From Catajapyx aquilonaris (lineage: Eukaryota), in the NCBI GenBank assembly GCA_000934665.2, contig JYFJ02004055.1, positions 1 to 35,147 on the forward strand: a stretch of DNA of 35,147 bases, written 5' to 3'. The position numbers and the translations under genes are program-made. Below, piece after piece: positions 3,444 through 12,399 of this stretch (positions within the stretch are counted from its first letter, which is position 1; every line of letters begins with the position of its first letter). The notes beneath the pieces are model-generated. The model was not told the origin of the DNA. It ran no database searches and was given only the letters and a program-made list of their open reading frames with translations.

Positions 3444-5132
3444 TCATTGATAGTTGTAGTCGTCCCGCCAATCATGGGTTGGATTGTTGTGCTTCTCAAG
3501 AATGGGTATGACTTCAGCCGATCCTTTCTCCACTGCCAGATCCAAAGGCGTCTTTCCTTCCTTGTCTTTGGCCTTGGAATCAGCCCCCTTTTCCAGAAGA
3601 AATCGGGTCAGTTCTGGTCTGTTGTTGATGGCCGCGAAGTGCAGTGGTGTCCTGTCCGACTTGTCCTTTTCCTCCAGCTCAGCCCCTCCTTTCAAGAGGA
3701 CGTCCACTACTCCAACGTGCCCTTGGATGGATGCGCAGTGGACAGGCCTCTCTCCAAACACATCCTGCGCCGCCTTGGCCCCTGCCCTCAGAAGCAGAGA
3801 CACTGAGGTCGAATGTCCGTTGGAAGCTGCCATATGAAGAGGTGTCCGATCGAACGTGTCCTTCTGGTCCACTGGCCATCCCCTGCTGAGGATGTAGGAC
3901 ACCACGTAGTGACGACCTTCCATTGCTGCGTAGTGCAGTCCACTGACCCCACTGTCGTTTCGGACAGCCGATGACCTCTCGACCCCTCTCCTGTTCACAT
4001 ATGTCCTCACCTCTTGCAAGTAACCTTCTTTGCAGGCCAGCAGGAAATTTTGGTCCTCCTGAAAATGTTGTTAATTAATCAATTAAAATTTATTAATAAT
4101 GTTGAGCTTACCATAATTCTCTCTGCGCTGACGTTGCAGTGTGGCTTGGCGAACAAGGTCTTGATCATTGCTGAGGCCTCAAAGTCCTTCATGATGTTGA
4201 CCGGAGTTGACCCGTAGTTGCCCTCGACCCAAGGGTTAGCCCCTTTAGCCAGCAGGTAGCACACCAGATCCCATTTCCCAGGCCCGGTCGTGATGGCAGC
4301 CAGATAAAGAGGTGTTTTGCTGTGTTGACCTCTGGCCTCCAGGTCAGCGCCAGACTTCAGAAGGAGGTCAATGACCTCCACGTGACCCTCAGTCGTAGCA
4401 TGGTGTATGGGCTGGTCACCATTGTTGTCCTTTGCGTCTGGTTGGGCACCTTCTTGCAACAGGACTCCTACAGTATGAGTGTGACCTTTGGATGATGCCC
4501 AATGCAGAGGGGTCATTCCGTCTCTATCCCTCTCGTCCACTGGCCATCCAGCCTTTACAAGATAGGTCACAACATCGTCGTGATCTTCCTGTGCAGCCAA
4601 ATGCATACCGCTCAAACCATCATCGTTTCGAGCCTTCAAACACTTCCTGACACCCTTTTGCTTTATGGCTTTCTTCACATCTTCAAGACGACCATCTTCA
4701 CAAGCTCGAAGAAACTCATCATCTGTCTAAAAAATTACAAACATTAACTTAATTACTATGCCAATTCGACACTATTACCATTTTCCAATGTTGATCCCGT
4801 TTCATGTTGCTGACGTCCAGTTCGACATTACGCATCGACTTCTTCATATCTTCCATATCATCCTGAAGGTGTTTAATACTTCGCATGACATTTTGGATTT
4901 TGTCCTAAAATAAAAATATTGTTAACAAAGCGAATTGCCTATTTTAAACTGGAGCAAGTACTTCGACTATGTCGCTGACACGTTGATCCAGCGATTCCGT
5001 TGTTAAAAACTCCAGTATTTTCTTGAACTCCTGCATTTCCTTCTCGCTCATCGTATGCTCACTTTCCATTCCATGGATTCCATAACTCGCACAACACACA
5101 ACAACACACAACCAGAAAACTGAGCACTTCAT
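3444..5132 (-). CDS. Signal peptide + coiled-coil-like stalk + 2 ankyrin-repeat modules (copy A, ~508 aa)
   Basis: Exons 5132-4962, 4904-4779, 4726-4112, 4058-3444. Phase-0 GT-AG introns of 52-57 nt, frame continuous. Hydrophobic N-terminus MKCSVFWLCVVVCCASYGIHG and many TPLH/LL..GA ankyrin motifs. Confidence 0.88.
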
Positions 5133-5366
5133 CCTGATCCTGCAGCCTCACACTAAGTTACGCATTTGGACCAGACACAGTTTACCAACGACTGACTGAT
5201 AACCCCCTTAGTGACGTTACTCAGTATCAACTCAACTTGTGACCTGCTGTGTCAATCGAAAAATGCTACATGAAGATAACAGAACATCATAAAATAGTGT
5301 GACACTTGTGAAGTGATAAACAATTTATTCCATTGCATATGACAACATTACAGACAAACTTTTCAT

Positions 5367-6942
5367 TTATAAGACATAATGTGCAGATTCGTATTCTTCC
5401 AAAGCCTGTACCGCCTCATCAGCCCCGTTTTCCTTAGCCAATTGGAGCGGAGTCCTTCCAGAATTGTCTGTGACCCCTGCATCCGCCTCTATAGACAGAA
5501 GAAACCTCACCATTTTGTCCCGATTAAGACGCGATGCAGTGTGAAGAGGTGTTTCGCCAAACATGTCCTTGTTGTTCAACCCAGCCCCTGATTTCAACAG
5601 AACTTGGGCCACCTGAATGTGACCTGTTCTGGCCGCAATGTGGATTGACCTCTCGCCAAATTCGGTCACGGCATCGACCTTTGCTCCTGACCTGAGCAGA
5701 AGTGACACTGTGGAGATGTGACCACCCCATGTGGCCATATGTAGAGGCGTTAGTAGATGTGGACCTTGTTGATCAACAGGCCAGTTTTGCTTTAACATGT
5801 AATCAACCACGTTGTCTCTTCCATACTTGGCAGCCAGATGCATCCCACTGTAGTCTTCTCTATTTGTGATATGAATTGCTTGTTCAACCCCTCTCTTGTT
5901 AACAGTATACATCACAACTGTCAAGCCGCCATCTTCGCATCCAAGCAGAAAATCCTGATCATCCTGGAATATACACACATTATGCAATCAGAATGTGGAC
6001 AGTAAAATTTAAAAAATTACCCTGTTAATAATGCACTTCTTAGTTCCTTTCATGAATTCGGCTATGTCCGGATCTAGTCCTCCAGATCTATTCCCGTATT
6101 CGTACACAGGATCATGATCGGCCCCAAGGGTCAGAAGGAAGCAGAACATGTCAAAGTCCCTGTTCATAGCCGCCATTGCTGCAGGGGTCATGTTACGATG
6201 ATCTCTGGCTTCTAAGTTGTTGGCAATCAGGTTGACGACTCCTCTGTTGCCACTTGAGACTCCAAGATGGATGGGTAGATCTCCATTGTTATCTTTGATG
6301 TTTGTACTGGCGCTGTATGCCAGAAGGGCCTCAACAGTGTCTCTGTCACCAATGGCACCCGACCAGTGAAGAGCTGTTCGGCCATCAGCATCCTGCTGGT
6401 CCACAGGCCACTTGGACAAGAGAAGAAATACAACCATCTGGAAATGTCGGTTCTGAGCAGCTACATGGATGCAGCTTCTTCCGTTCTTGTCCTTCAGATT
6501 TTGCATTGTTTCGACTCCTATGTTGTCCAGCGAGTCTTTCACCACATCAAGGCTGCTGTTTTCACATGCATGCATAAGGTCATCTTTCAATGATGAGGGC
6601 TGCAGAAGATCATAGCTGATCAGTCATTTCCGAACAGTCTACATGAATTTAATTTAAACAAAGATCAACTTACCTTTTCAGTCTCGCTTTCACCTTTAAC
6701 GTACTTTCGGATATCATTTATATCACGTTTGATGATTTCCAGCTCATGTTTCAGACTCGAATGAACAATCTGAATTTCATTCTTGAAGAGATAATCACAC
6801 CGTAAACGAGGATTTCAATGGTGGATTTAATATTTACCTTTATGGCTGTGACTACTTCTTCCAAATGTGATTTCATTGTTACCACACCGGGTGAGACAAT
6901 CGCTGCTGTGATGACGAACAAGGCAAACTTTAAACTGTTCAT
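5367..6942 (-). CDS. Signal peptide + coiled-coil-like stalk + 2 ankyrin-repeat modules (copy B, ~462 aa)
   Basis: Exons 6942-6838, 6781-6674, 6599-6021, 5963-5367, all phase 0. N-terminus MNSLKFALFVITAAIVSPGVVT, stalk NEIQIVHSSLKHELEIIKRDINDIRK. Minus-strand TATAAAA near 6990. Confidence 0.88.
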
Positions 6943-10651: not shown

Positions 10652-10799
10652 CAAGGGGGTAATCACTCGACTGAAAAGTGTACACTGGAGTACCAAATTC
10701 AAGGAGTACCACGGAGTAATAAAGAGTGAGGTGCCTGAGGAGTACCAGGGAGTACCACTCCCAGGTGTACACCGGAGTACCGAAGTGATTACCCCCTTG
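10652..10799. mobile_element. 148-bp hAT-like MITE
   Basis: Perfect 16-bp TIRs caagggggtaatcact / agtgattacccccttg. 8-bp TSD accaacat at 10644-10651 and 10800-10807. Internal ggagtacc repeats. Confidence 0.9.
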
Positions 10800-10864
10800 A
10801 CCAACATTCAGAAATTAAAAAATTGTGTATTATAATATAGCGGTTTTATTGACAACCATGTGGA

Positions 10865-12399
10865 TTATTCTTCCAACGTTCGTATGATATTGGAATATCC
10901 TTTCATTTTGGCCAGGTCCAGAGGCGTGTTGCCCTTATCGTCTTGTGCCGTTTTGTCCGCCCCCTTCTCAATCAGATATCGTGTCAATATGTGGTGATTC
11001 ATGTCCACTGCAATGTGAAGAGGTGTCATTCCATTACTCCCCTTGTCTTCAATCCCAGCACCAGCTTTGAACAGAAGGGAAACCACATCCACATGGCCTC
11101 CTTCACAAGCGAAGTGGATAGCCTTGTCTCCTATTACGTTCATGGCATCCACGCTTGCTCCAGCCTCCAGAAGCAGGAAGGAAGTTGAGGAATGTCCATT
11201 TACCGCGCTCAGGTGAAGGGCAGTTGTTGAGGCAGATCCCTTCTGGTCCACAGGCCATCCTTGGGTCAAAAGGTAGTACACCACCCTTTCTCTTCCTTCC
11301 ATTGCAGACACGTGCAAGCAGCTGTTGCCAAATCTCTTCATATTAATGGTGTCCGCAGTGCTCCGACCATTCATGATCGCCTTGACCGCTTCCAGTCGAC
11401 CGTCCTCGCAGGCAGATAAAAACTCCTGTTCATGGAGAAACTGCTGTTATCACACTTGCTACGCCCTCACGATTTGAGCCGCGGTCGCACGATTTGAACA
11501 GCGGTCGCACGATCTGAGCAGCGGTCGCACGACCAGACGGCTGGTCGTGCGACCCCGGCTCAGATCGTGAGGGCGTAAACAGGCCTTAATATTTGCCATG
11601 TTTTGTACTACATACTAACCGAACTGATGATGCACTTTTCAGGATCCTTCAGGAGTCTGACCACATCCGTCGCATTTCTGTCTTCAGCCAGTTTCAGTGG
11701 CGTAACCCCGTCGGTACTTTCCGAGTTCAAGTAAGCCCCATTTGATATGAACAAGCAGACCATGACCGAATTGGATTGGTTCGCAGCATAGTGCAAGGGC
11801 GTCCAGTCTTTCAGACCCTTTGCGTTCACATTGGCACCGGCTCCCATAGCAATCTTGACCTTTTCGAGATCGCCCTCGTCACAGGCACGGAGAAAGTCTT
11901 CGTCACTCTGAGGAGACAAATGCAAATGTTAGTCACACTTATCAGGCATAGTAACTTGCTATACTTACTATTATGGATGTATTTCGTTCACTTGCACAAC
12001 TGCAGTTGCATTTAGCCTTTTCCATGTTGATGAGAATCAGTCTCATATCGTCACGCAGACCCTTAACTTCGTCCTTCAAAGACACAAGAACCGTTGTGAA
12101 ATATCTTCGGCAGGATTAGAGTGACTTGCTAGTTATTACTTGAGAAGGTGATTTTTGCGAAATATTTAACTATAACTGTGCCTGTGCCAGTTAGCCAGTG
12201 ATTTTCAGTCATTCAAGCTAAAAATATGTTTGCGTACCATGATTATACTGGTGAGACGTGATTCAACAGCCGTTACAAGACTTCGGATGTTCTTCAACTC
12301 CCTCATCACTTCGTCACTCTCTGTGTCGGTGCAGATTCCACTTGTCCAACAATTCAGCACTAAGGCAACAACCAGCCATTTGACGTGAGAGAACGACAT
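10865..12399 (-). CDS. Signal peptide + stalk + shortened and full ankyrin modules (copy D, ~371 aa)
   Basis: Exons 12399-12238, 12073-11969, 11907-11620, 11425-10865. Close paralog of copy C with an in-frame deletion in module 1. The last acceptor (gaacag|GAG) is inferred, so the gene could be decaying. Confidence 0.75.
11460..11589. mobile_element. Palindromic MITE-like insertion in an intron (possibly PIF/Harbinger-like)
   Basis: ~33-bp inverted arms tacgccctcacgatttgagccgcggtcgcacga / tcgtgcgaccccggctcagatcgtgagggcgta. Internal 20-bp tandem units. Right end aaacaggcc-ttaa, left end appears truncated. Absent from the paralogous intron in copy C. Confidence 0.7.

What the first reader, a model, noticed from the sequence alone, without database searches (positions are those of the whole stretch)
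3444..12399. Tandem family of four apparently secreted ankyrin-repeat proteins (signal peptide + coiled-coil-like stalk + twin ankyrin modules)
Seen: the ORF track shows eight separate ankyrin ORFs, but splice signals join them in frame into four genes. Each starts with a hydrophobic signal-peptide exon and a heptad-like helical stalk, with no transmembrane anchor or KDEL visible. Known: animal ankyrin repeats are overwhelmingly intracellular. Exported examples include spider latrotoxins and effectors of intracellular bacteria. Inference: this is a lineage-specific, rapidly diverging family of extracellular, possibly oligomeric binders, with a possible immune-recognition, venom/salivary or seminal role. 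I do not recognise this architecture as a named family.
Basis: partly seen in the sequence, partly recalled or inferred. Interest (0 to 1): 0.85.

Follow-up and report, generated by a model that had tools for sequence, protein, structure and literature searches.

The report
Four signal-peptide ankyrin genes in tandem
An arthropod-like animal genome carries four neighbouring, spliced genes for ankyrin-repeat proteins that begin with a secretion-type signal and a helical stalk, an unusual design for a protein type that normally works inside cells, although secretion itself has not been shown.

Summary
Eight minus-strand ankyrin ORFs join through 11 phase-0 GT..AG introns into four genes of 508, 462, 482 and 371 aa. 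Intron-less contigs of run X5 bridge 5 of the 11 introns, including one signal-exon junction. No contig of DNA run X1 does.

Each protein has three parts:
- a signal-peptide-like start, close to the neighbouring C-type lectins and unlike the neighbouring kinases;
- a 45-70 aa amphipathic helical stalk, with a true 3.5-residue period only in gene A;
- two six-repeat ankyrin modules.

There is no second hydrophobic stretch.

The two-module plan predates the gene duplications. The young pair C/D has dN/dS near 0.7, and its changes cluster on the canonical binding face.

Four searches found no relative. The scan had not noted this family on other DNA.

My reading is a lineage-restricted family of secretory-pathway ankyrin binders. 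Secretion, oligomerisation and the proposed immune, venom or seminal roles are untested. Predicted secreted ankyrin effectors of phylloxera are a partial precedent. I rate it a new variant of a known kind, of moderate interest.

The parts
4962..5132 (-). Gene A exon 1: ATG at 5132, signal-peptide-like start plus first stalk helix (57 codons)
   Evidence: Donor GT follows 4962. First in-frame stop lies 6 codons upstream.
4779..4904 (-). Gene A exon 2: second stalk helix (42 codons)
   Evidence: Heptad a/d positions hydrophobic in 10 of 11. The junction to exon 3 is bridged by an X5 contig, 4726/4779.
4112..4726 (-). Gene A exon 3: ankyrin module 1 (six repeats) with a Cys-bearing tail/linker
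   Evidence: Pfam. AF2 mean pLDDT 90.6. Foldseek TM 0.82-0.83 to DARPins and gankyrin. Both flanking junctions are bridged in X5.
3444..4058 (-). Gene A exon 4: ankyrin module 2 and stop codon (3444-3446)
   Evidence: Junction 4057/4111 in X5. AATAAA 308 nt past the stop.
6838..6942 (-). Gene B exon 1: ATG at 6942, signal-peptide-like start and a short helix (35 codons)
6989..6995 (-). TATAAAA 53 nt upstream of gene B's ATG, with Inr-like ACAGTT/TCATTC at -23/-18
   Evidence: This is a motif match only.
6674..6781 (-). Gene B exon 2: stalk helix. A second in-frame acceptor 12 nt downstream (exon start 6769) is equally possible.
   Evidence: An X5 contig covers 6674-6785 and skips 6600-6673.
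6021..6599 (-). Gene B exon 3: ankyrin module 1
   Evidence: Junction 6599/6674 in X5.
5367..5963 (-). Gene B exon 4: ankyrin module 2 and stop
   Evidence: AATAAA 38 nt past the stop.
10264..10422 (-). Gene C exon 1: ATG at 10422, signal-peptide-like start plus first stalk helix (53 codons)
   Evidence: Collinear with gene A exon 1 in BLASTP, E 9e-5 for the pair.
9480..10199 (-). Gene C exon 2: second stalk helix, a linker made from a former intron, and ankyrin module 1 (240 codons)
   Evidence: Relative to D, 43 nt including the donor are missing, and the 3' part of the old intron is now coding.
8850..9419 (-). Gene C exon 3: ankyrin module 2 and stop
   Evidence: AATAAA 26 nt past the stop.
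12238..12399 (-). Gene D exon 1: ATG at 12399, signal-peptide-like start plus first stalk helix (54 codons)
   Evidence: Joined to exon 2 in an X5 contig, 12072/12237 with 67 nt on the shorter side.
12455..12461 (-). TATTTAA 62 nt upstream of gene D's ATG, with Inr-like motifs at -24/-19/-12
   Evidence: This is a motif match only.
11969..12073 (-). Gene D exon 2: second stalk helix with a Cys cluster (35 codons)
   Evidence: Heptad a/d positions hydrophobic in 6 of 6.
11620..11907 (-). Gene D exon 3: ankyrin module 1 shortened by an in-register loss of 105 aa (three repeats)
   Evidence: AF2 best model pLDDT 92.9 with three helix pairs; the five models range from 57 to 93. An X5 contig covers the whole exon.
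10865..11425 (-). Gene D exon 4: ankyrin module 2 and stop
   Evidence: Acceptor fixed by X5 joint 11424/11619. AATAAA 15 nt past the stop.
2328..3061 (+). Context: C-type lectin gene, tail to tail with gene A
   Evidence: Lectin_C hits. Hydrophobic N-terminus used as the positive control.
7844..8573 (+). Context: C-type lectin gene, head to head with gene B and tail to tail with gene C
   Evidence: Lectin_C hits. Hydrophobic N-terminus used as the positive control.

Best explanation
These are four expressed or expressible members of a lineage-restricted arthropod gene family. Their products enter the secretory pathway and act as soluble protein-binding modules outside the cytosol.

Architecture:
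- The first exon gives a cleavable signal peptide and the start of a charged, proline-free amphipathic helix.
- That helix continues through the next exon as a 45-70 residue stalk, which probably self-associates as a coiled coil.
- Two exon-sized ankyrin solenoids of about six repeats each follow, joined by a short linker of about 12 residues that carries a cysteine.

Evolution. The family was built from symmetrical phase-0 exons. It changes by tandem gene duplication, intron loss, in-register loss of whole repeats and fast substitution at the positions that form the ankyrin binding face. This is how families of diversified binders evolve.

What is shown and what is inferred. The gene structures, part of the splicing, the ankyrin fold prediction, the evolutionary pattern and the absence of relatives in my four searches are shown. 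Signal-peptide cleavage, export, stalk oligomerisation and the ligand are inferred.
For: Gene models and RNA:
- The models have no internal stops, and all 11 introns are phase 0.
- 5 of 11 introns are bridged by intron-less X5 contigs that DNA run X1 lacks. One of them is the signal-exon to helix-exon junction of gene D.
- TATA plus Inr-like motifs lie directly upstream of the ATG of B and D, in-frame stops lie 6-17 codons upstream in A, B and D, and polyadenylation signals follow all four stops.

N-termini:
- In 4 of 4 there is one K in the n-region, no acidic residue in the first 20, and a hydrophobic core with mean KD(11) of 1.80-2.89. The two neighbouring C-type lectins score 3.06-3.20 and the two kinases 0.35-0.87.
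- -3/-1 candidate cleavage sites are present, net negative charge follows them, and there is no second hydrophobic stretch.
- The signal-plus-helix exon is collinear between the old paralogues A and C (pairwise E 9e-5). The signal part is the most constrained part of the C/D pair (dN/dS 0.26, from only 21 codons).

Stalk:
- Helical periodicity is significant in 4 of 4.
- A has 14 of 20 a/d positions hydrophobic, p=0.001.
- Within exons, a/d positions are hydrophobic in 7/8, 7/8, 6/6 and 10/11.
- There are 0-1 Pro/Gly residues and 36-41% charged residues.

Ankyrin modules:
- Pfam hits in 8 of 8, AF2 pLDDT 90.6, TM 0.82-0.83 to DARPins and gankyrin.
- Module 1s group together (33-40% identity) and module 2s group together (40-48%) across genes. 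The twin plan is therefore old and has been kept. dN/dS is 0.16-0.20 between old pairs.
- In the young pair C2/D2, 16 of 30 binding-face columns differ against 31 of 127 other columns (OR 3.5, p=0.0025). Column entropy is 2.13 against 1.18 (p=1.5e-9).
Against: - No signal-peptide or topology predictor could be run, and secretion is untested.
- Only 1 of 4 signal-exon junctions has a bridging contig.
- The mean KD(19) of the N-termini of A (1.76) and B (1.91) lies above the classical membrane-span threshold of about 1.6 (threshold recalled, not from a call). An uncleaved signal anchor is therefore not excluded for those two.
- The mature proteins keep 5-10 cysteines at mostly non-conserved positions, in odd numbers in B. 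That looks more like a cytosolic protein than a typical extracellular one. I could not measure Cys-Cys distances in the model.
- N-glycosylation sequons number 2-6 per protein. I did not compare this with expectation.
- The stalks of B, C and D peak at a period of 3.6-3.65, not 3.5, and fail the single-register heptad test.
- dN/dS of 0.67-0.70 in C/D fits relaxed constraint as well as diversifying selection. Binding-face positions vary in ankyrin proteins generally.
- The binding-face positions I used are recalled from DARPin design, not taken from a call.
- With no relatives outside the window, nothing shows conservation of the design across species.
Confidence: 0.55

Rival explanations
1. 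The proteins are secreted, but as effectors in saliva, venom or seminal fluid. They would act inside the cells of another organism (host, prey or mate), where ankyrin repeats meet their usual cytosolic partners.
For: - Ankyrin repeats are among the three commonest known domains in the >2700 candidate secreted effectors of grape phylloxera (PMC7376646, passage). They are described as enriched (43) in its effector sets (PMC7601026, passages).
- Phrases such as 'secreted ankyrin repeat' otherwise occur only in papers on microbial, oomycete or plasmodiophorid effectors and on latrotoxin (8 papers listed of 10).
That is a second intracellular-type adaptor family with secretion signals.
- The many free cysteines and the fast change on the binding face also fit.
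Against: - The lifestyle of the organism and the tissue of expression are unknown.
- An N-terminal oligomerising stalk is more typical of humoral recognition proteins than of effectors. This is my own knowledge, not a call.
- The genes sit among C-type lectin genes.
- No similarity beyond generic ankyrin repeats to any database protein, phylloxera included if it is held there.
Confidence: 0.2
2. The hydrophobic start is an uncleaved signal anchor or an ER-retention device. The proteins would then be type II membrane proteins or residents of the ER, Golgi or secretory-granule lumen, not exported binders.
For: - Uncharged runs of 17 residues (A) and 18 residues (B), with KD(19) of 1.76 and 1.91.
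- A helical stalk directly behind a membrane anchor is a common type II layout. This is my own knowledge.
Against: - The hydrophobic cores are only 8-13 residues long in C and D, and KD(19) there is at most 1.46.
- Small residues at -3/-1 and Gly or Pro after the core are present in all four.
- No KDEL-like C-terminus.
Confidence: 0.12
3. The proteins are ordinary cytosolic ankyrin proteins. The signal exons would be mis-assigned or used only in minor isoforms, and translation would normally start elsewhere.
For: - Only gene D's exon 1-2 junction is bridged by a contig.
- Ankyrin repeats are overwhelmingly cytosolic (general knowledge).
- The cysteine pattern is unremarkable for a cytosolic protein.
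Against: - All four genes keep an in-frame signal-like exon with splice sites.
- That exon is collinear between the old paralogues A and C.
- Promoter-like motifs sit directly upstream of it in B and D.
- D's junction is seen in RNA-type contigs.
- Downstream exons start in phase 0 without a nearby ATG in a good position. This comes from reading; I did not score it.
Confidence: 0.08
4. Part of the array is decaying. Gene D (three repeats lost, enlarged introns) and perhaps gene C (no recognisable promoter motif, high-copy repeat upstream) would be pseudogenes in the making, and the high dN/dS of the pair would reflect that.
For: - The 105-aa deletion.
- Introns of 164 and 194 nt, one holding a tandem-repeat insertion.
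- dN/dS of 0.67-0.70.
- No TATA or Inr motif upstream of C, and the upstream regions of C and D are not alignable.
Against: - Both frames are intact.
- D is spliced in frame at two junctions in X5.
- The deletion is in register, and the shortened module is predicted to fold, with best-model pLDDT 92.9.
- dN/dS is still below 1, and the signal part is conserved.
Confidence: 0.05

Closest known systems
Candidate secreted ankyrin-repeat effectors of grape phylloxera (Daktulosphaira vitifoliae)
   Same: Arthropod genes that combine a predicted secretion signal with ankyrin repeats. They are lineage-specific, most without homologues elsewhere, and belong to expanded families (PMC7376646, passage read; PMC7601026, passages read).
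   Different: I saw no report of a helical stalk or a twin-module plan in those passages. No sequence relation was detected. Their table of domains is a supplement that I could not open. The window's GC content (about 45%) and tiny introns are unlike what I recall for aphid-like genomes, so this is not that species.
Mosquito LRIM1/APL1C leucine-rich-repeat immune proteins
   Same: Works alike, by analogy. They are arthropod secreted proteins that pair a solenoid-repeat binding domain with a coiled coil that makes them oligomeric, in lineage-specific families. The architecture is recalled; of PMC3020904 I saw only the search listing and the start of the abstract.
   Different: The repeat is LRR, not ankyrin. 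The coiled coil lies C-terminal there and N-terminal here. There is no homology, so this is not a member.
Signal peptide + coiled-coil + recognition-domain proteins of invertebrate immunity (coiled-coil C-type lectins, coiled-coil FREPs)
   Same: The order of parts is the same: signal, helical oligomerising region, then binding domain. The genes here are interleaved with C-type lectin genes. Of PMC5645147 and PMC11741071 I saw only the listing and the start of the abstracts.
   Different: The binding domain here is an ankyrin solenoid, which those families do not use.
Designed ankyrin repeat proteins (DARPins) and gankyrin
   Same: Closest solved folds to module 1 of gene A: TM 0.82-0.83, rmsd 1.8-2.1 A, 28-35% identity. 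The variable positions coincide with the DARPin randomised positions (positions recalled).
   Different: DARPins are artificial and gankyrin is cytosolic. Neither has a signal peptide, a stalk or a twin-module layout.
Latrotoxins of widow spiders
   Same: Arthropod proteins with ankyrin repeats that act outside the producing cell. This is recalled; PMC13611351 and PMC4058007 were seen only in search listings.
   Different: As I recall, latrotoxins are about 1200-1400 aa, with a large N-terminal domain and about 20 repeats, and without a classical signal peptide. The proteins here are 371-508 aa with 2 x 6 repeats and a signal-like start. I made no direct sequence comparison with a latrotoxin.

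Membership tests
Ankyrin-repeat proteins (Pfam Ank_2 PF12796 / Ank PF00023) | Tandem 33-residue helix-turn-helix repeats that match the Pfam models above the curated cut-off | tested here: met
   8 of 8 ORFs. Ank_2 scores are 45.8-146.8 bits against a cut-off of 27.3.
Ankyrin-repeat proteins (Pfam Ank_2 PF12796 / Ank PF00023) | Solenoid fold of stacked helix pairs | tested here: met
   AF2 model of A module 1 has pLDDT 90.6 and 13 helices in pairs. 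TM is 0.82-0.83 to DARPins and gankyrin. This is a prediction, not a solved structure.
Classical secretory proteins with a cleavable N-terminal signal peptide | Basic n-region, hydrophobic h-region of about 7-15 residues, and small residues at -3/-1 of a c-region | tested here: met
   Met in 4 of 4 by simple rules. Core hydropathy is 1.80-2.89, against 3.06-3.20 for the lectin controls and 0.35-0.87 for the kinase controls. These are heuristics of my own, not a trained predictor.
Classical secretory proteins with a cleavable N-terminal signal peptide | The signal lies at the true N-terminus of the main transcript | tested here: inconclusive
   The exon 1-2 junction is bridged for D only, 1 of 4. 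TATA and Inr-like motifs lie upstream of B and D only.
Classical secretory proteins with a cleavable N-terminal signal peptide | Cleavage and export shown by experiment or by a trained predictor | not testable with these tools
   No SignalP or DeepTMHMM and no proteome data were on hand.
Coiled-coil oligomerisation stalks (collectin neck, LRIM-type) | Heptad (3.5-residue) periodicity of hydrophobic residues over at least 4-5 heptads | tested here: inconclusive
   A meets it: period 3.45, a/d hydrophobic in 14 of 20, p=0.001. B, C and D have periods of 3.60-3.65 and single-register p of 0.06, 0.25 and 0.65, but local heptads within exons.
Coiled-coil oligomerisation stalks (collectin neck, LRIM-type) | Self-association | not testable with these tools
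   The complex predictor was not available.
LRIM family | Leucine-rich-repeat domain | tested here: not met
   Pfam finds only ankyrin families on the repeat exons. The resemblance is by analogy only.
Latrotoxins | Large N-terminal domain followed by about 20 ankyrin repeats, about 1200-1400 aa in all (recalled) | tested here: not met
   The proteins are 371-508 aa, with a 45-70 aa stalk and 2 x 6 repeats.
Phylloxera-type secreted ankyrin effector candidates | Sequence relation to those genes, and salivary-gland expression | not tested
   Their sequences were not singled out. My searches gave no hit above 45% identity to anything. Tissue of expression is unknown. The relevant supplement was not readable.

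The most novel reading that the evidence does not exclude
An arthropod has built a natural repertoire of secreted, stalk-oligomerised 'DARPin-like' binders. On this reading the ankyrin solenoid, normally a cytosolic scaffold, is used as a diversifying extracellular recognition module in the way LRRs are used in LRIMs or lamprey VLRs. New specificities would arise by tandem duplication, repeat-number change and substitution on the concave face. Together with the signal-peptide SPOP-like array noted elsewhere in the same genome, this would mark a lineage that has repeatedly exported intracellular interaction domains.
Probability: 0.25. Interest if true: 0.8.

Novelty: new variant of a known kind. 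Interest (0 to 1): 0.55.

Why it matters
Ankyrin repeats are among the commonest protein-binding scaffolds, but in animals they work almost only in the cytosol. Engineered ankyrin binders (DARPins) show that the fold can serve outside cells.

A natural animal family with a secretion signal, an oligomerising stalk and fast-changing binding faces would show that evolution used the same solution. It would add a new scaffold to the list of invertebrate recognition or effector molecules (LRR, fibrinogen, C-type lectin, C1q). It would also offer naturally export-competent ankyrin frameworks.

The locus also illustrates, in 9 kb, how such a family is built: phase-0 exon modules, intron loss by exonisation, and in-register repeat deletion. 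If the proteins turn out to be cytosolic or ER-resident, the finding shrinks to an ordinary lineage-specific ankyrin expansion.

Tried and rejected
Searches for relatives (all three word-index protein searches used):
- Gene C exon 2 against longer proteins: 6400 hits with E<=1e-10 among 8000 candidates scored. The 120 listed were all 850 aa or longer generic ankyrin proteins, at most 42% identical. The list was crowded by giants, so this is weak evidence.
- Residues 1-70 of A module 1 against longer proteins: 84 candidates and 1 hit, at 47 bits. That hit is an 839-aa ankyrin protein found on contigs up to 7.7 Mb, with a hydrophobic N-terminus, and is not a relative.
- Profile of 7 modules against proteins of 102-359 aa: 1154 hits with E<=1e-20, of which 120 were listed, at most 45% identical.
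- 0 of the 241 proteins fetched up to then carry the family's WPVD-type motif.

Metagenome contigs, scanned with family motifs (after one search failed for lack of a conserved stretch):
- 225 pattern matches and 12 loci, at most 41% identical.
- The best locus is a giant canonical ankyrin with a 1835-aa open frame.

Other look-ups:
- ESM Atlas gave only generic ankyrin clusters.
- Pfam on the 8 stalk and signal exons gave nothing near a cut-off.
- Rfam on the whole window gave 0 matches.
- No whole genome is held for the window, so paralogues elsewhere could not be counted.

Sequencing runs:
- No RNA holder was listed. Run X5 is of unrecorded kind. I treat it as RNA-derived only because its contigs skip introns.
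- X5 gave no cover over gene A's exon 1, and almost none over gene C. It also showed one odd joint, 3566 to 9888, with 26 nt on the short side, which I take for a chimeric contig between paralogous stretches. None of this counts for or against expression.

Complex prediction of two copies of A's 42-residue stalk exon was not possible. The queue was full and the tool was withdrawn, so nothing was folded.

Taxon: the exhaustive search with a neighbouring serine-hydrolase-like exon gave best hits of only 24-33% identity. The 6 named clusters among the 10 looked up were all arthropods: dragonfly, stick insects, water bug, scorpions and centipede. No close annotated relative exists in that library, which may explain the empty family searches.

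Ideas rejected:
- Block duplication of a lectin-ANK-ANK unit. C is closest to D, not to A.
- Gene transfer from Wolbachia. Its ankyrin proteins appear among the hits only at the generic 36-39% level, and the genes here have spliceosomal introns.
- A disulfide pattern as evidence of export. The linker Cys and the module-2 cap Cys are kept in 4 of 4 genes, 10-17 residues apart, but I could not measure geometry, and other cysteines are not conserved.

Literature: six searches found no animal family with signal peptide, coiled coil and ankyrin repeats. The library lacks most subscription journals.

Full report
WHAT IS THERE. The window is animal DNA and no whole genome is held for it. Between 3444 and 12399, eight stop-to-stop ORFs on the minus strand encode ankyrin repeats. 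All 8 pass Pfam's Ank_2 and Ank cut-offs, with E from 9e-12 to 3e-43. Reading the strand and splicing by coordinates gives four genes:
- Gene A: exons 5132-4962, 4904-4779, 4726-4112 and 4058-3444, 508 aa.
- Gene B: exons 6942-6838, 6781-6674, 6599-6021 and 5963-5367, 462 aa. A second in-frame acceptor lies 12 nt further on.
- Gene C: exons 10422-10264, 10199-9480 and 9419-8850, 482 aa.
- Gene D: exons 12399-12238, 12073-11969, 11907-11620 and 11425-10865, 371 aa.

All 11 introns have GT..AG ends and are phase 0. Nine are 52-74 nt long and two, in D, are 164 and 194 nt. Polyadenylation signals follow all four stops. TATA plus Inr-like motifs precede the ATG of B and D. In-frame stops lie 6-17 codons upstream of the ATG in A, B and D.

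TRANSCRIPT SUPPORT. The search for sequencing runs listed four DNA runs of one sample and one small run, X5, of unrecorded kind. When laid on the region, X5 contigs skip exactly five of my 11 introns:
- A intron 2 (4726/4779) and A intron 3 (4057/4111);
- B intron 2 (6599/6674);
- D intron 1 (12072/12237) and D intron 3 (11424/11619).

Each has CT..AC ends on the + strand. DNA run X1 of the same coded organism has none of these joints. I therefore read X5 as RNA-derived. The D intron 1 joint ties a signal exon to a helix exon. The D intron 3 joint corrected my first acceptor. The other six introns have no bridging contig.

THE PROTEINS. All four start with a signal-peptide-like segment. There is one lysine in the n-region, no acidic residue in the first 20, and a hydrophobic core followed by small residues at candidate -3/-1 sites and by net negative charge. 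No other stretch has a Kyte-Doolittle 19-residue mean above 1.28. As an internal control, the core hydropathy (11-residue mean) is 2.89, 2.86, 1.80 and 2.11 for A to D. It is 3.20 and 3.06 for the two neighbouring C-type lectins and 0.87 and 0.35 for the two neighbouring kinases. The C-termini are hydrophilic and not KDEL-like.

A stalk of 45-70 residues follows, with 36-41% charged residues and 0-1 Pro/Gly. Its hydrophobicity has a significant helical period in all four genes: 3.45, 3.60, 3.65 and 3.60 residues, with 0.2-3.2% of shuffles reaching the observed power. Only A fits one heptad register (14 of 20 a/d positions hydrophobic, p=0.001); B, C and D give p of 0.06, 0.25 and 0.65. Within single exons the a/d positions are hydrophobic in 10/11, 7/8, 7/8 and 6/6 cases. 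This suggests heptads with a register shift at the exon joint. Pfam finds no family on these exons.

Each of the two large exons is one ankyrin module of about six repeats. AF2 gives A's first module a mean pLDDT of 90.6, with a disordered last 7 residues. The closest solved folds are DARPins and gankyrin (TM 0.82-0.83). Family hallmarks are an invariant Cys in the first cap helix and an invariant W-P-V after the second repeat. A further Cys in the short linker after module 1 is kept in 4 of 4 genes.

HOW THE FAMILY EVOLVED. Module 1s are most alike across genes (33-40% identity) and so are module 2s (40-48%). Module 1 against module 2 is 25-39%, apart from one near-tie (A1 against D2, 39%). 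C and D are 69% alike. The twin-module plan therefore predates the gene duplications, and C/D is a young pair.

The signal-plus-helix exon of A aligns collinearly with that of C (pairwise E 9e-5), so the N-terminal part is old too. All exons are symmetrical (phase 0), as expected for assembly by exon duplication and shuffling.

Gene C lost the intron between stalk and module 1. Compared with D, 43 nt including the donor are missing, and the 3' part of the old intron is now read as the linker. Gene D lost 105 residues of module 1 in register, from the end of the first repeat's second helix to the same point three repeats on. The remaining 96 residues are predicted to fold as a three-repeat unit, with best-model pLDDT 92.9; the five models range from 57 to 93.

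Between C and D, dS is about 0.3. dN/dS is 0.26 for the signal part (21 codons), 0.53 and 0.69 for the two helices, and 0.70 and 0.67 for the ankyrin parts. Old pairs give 0.16-0.20 with saturated dS.

I took the DARPin randomised positions (recalled, relative to the T of TPLH) as the binding face. In C2 against D2, 16 of 30 such columns differ against 31 of 127 others (odds ratio 3.5, p=0.0025). Across seven modules their entropy is 2.13 against 1.18 (p=1.5e-9). These positions vary in ankyrin proteins generally. Only the young-pair result bears on recent diversification, and relaxed constraint in D would give the same picture.

RELATIVES ELSEWHERE.
- Three protein searches gave only generic ankyrin proteins, at most 45% identical. 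None of the 241 proteins fetched carries the WPVD-type motif. The first search was crowded by giant ankyrins, so its silence is weak.
- A motif-driven scan of metagenome contigs gave 12 loci, at most 41% identical. The best is a canonical giant ankyrin.
- The window's own ORFs are not in the protein collection either. A neighbouring serine-hydrolase-like exon finds nothing above 33% identity among the 10 best hits of 1.84 billion representatives. The named best hits are all arthropods. The organism thus has no close annotated relative, which limits what 'no relatives' means.
- Earlier notes of this scan, unchecked by me, also call the genome arthropod. They report an array of 15 signal-peptide-bearing SPOP-like genes in it.
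- The scan had not noted this ankyrin family before.

MECHANISM AND RIVALS. The best-supported reading (0.55) is that the products enter the ER, lose the signal peptide and leave the cell as soluble binders. These would be probably oligomeric, with two ankyrin solenoids that present variable concave faces.

Where they act is open. They could be humoral recognition or adaptor proteins, which suits the N-terminal stalk and the interleaved C-type lectin genes. They could instead be effectors delivered into another organism's cells (0.2). That rival suits the intracellular nature of the fold, the free cysteines, the phylloxera precedent and the SPOP-like array.

An uncleaved anchor or ER residency (0.12) is not excluded for A and B, whose N-termini reach KD(19) of 1.76 and 1.91. 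Cytosolic use with mis-assigned first exons (0.08) is unlikely, because all four genes keep the exon and D's junction is seen. Decay of D and perhaps C (0.05) is possible but not indicated by their frames, their splicing or the predicted fold.

COMPARISON WITH WHAT IS KNOWN. The repeat exons are ordinary members of the ankyrin superfamily. The whole architecture matched nothing in Pfam or in six literature searches. The phrases 'secreted ankyrin repeat' and 'extracellular ankyrin' occur only in microbial, oomycete, plasmodiophorid and latrotoxin papers.

The nearest animal precedent is the set of predicted secreted ankyrin effector candidates of grape phylloxera. Their domain table is a supplement I could not read. 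A spittlebug foam proteome also lists an ankyrin-repeat region among secreted proteins (PMC12911473, passages). By way of working, the closest analogues are LRIM1/APL1C and the coiled-coil lectins and FREPs, which combine a signal, a coiled coil and a binding domain. The family is not a member of any of these.

VERDICT. The architecture, the lineage restriction as far as could be searched, and the fast change on the binding face stand. Export, oligomerisation and the biological role are inferences. I rate it a new variant of a known kind, with interest 0.55.

Noticed in passing
window 1-339, 2328-3061, 7844-8573 (+ strand): Three C-type lectin genes with signal-like starts and a QPD-type sugar-binding motif are interleaved with the ankyrin genes. 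Two carry short tandem repeats in their N-terminal regions (2392-2486, period 36/18; 7930-7972, period 15). X5 contigs over the third lectin carry many differences, so they come from expressed paralogues elsewhere.
   Followed up: partly
window 10650-10800: A very high-copy repeat lies between gene D's 3' end and gene C's start. DNA run X1 word depth there is about 50,000, against about 30 around it, with many loose ends at both borders. It looks like a dispersed element.
   Followed up: no
window 11468-11532: A 20-nt tandem repeat (3.2 copies, 91% matches) sits inside the enlarged last intron of gene D.
   Followed up: no
window 12637-13803 (-) and 13899-15116 (+): A head-to-head pair of intron-poor protein kinase genes. 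For the first, Pfam Pkinase gives E 2.5e-41. They look like testis-specific serine kinase types.
   Followed up: no
window 566-1808 (-), 15360-17631 (+), 19294-21306 (+), 25815-28070 (+): Four paralogous genes with long single ORFs look like ionotropic glutamate-receptor or variant IR-type channels, judged by reading the ORFs only. The window as a whole is a mosaic of tandemly duplicated families.
   Followed up: no
window 17877-18818 (-) and 24039-25238 (+): Two serine-hydrolase-like genes. Among the 10 best library relatives, identity is only 24-33%, and the named ones are all arthropods. Genes of this genome seem very diverged from anything annotated.
   Followed up: partly
window 3566 and 9888: One X5 contig joins these two places, skipping 6321 nt, with TT..AG ends and 26 nt on the short side. 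It is probably a chimeric contig between paralogous ankyrin stretches of genes A and C. It remains unexplained.
   Followed up: no
window 23000-23430 and about 31000-32000: AT-rich, low-complexity stretches (GC 0.29-0.31) with strong AT skew.
   Followed up: no
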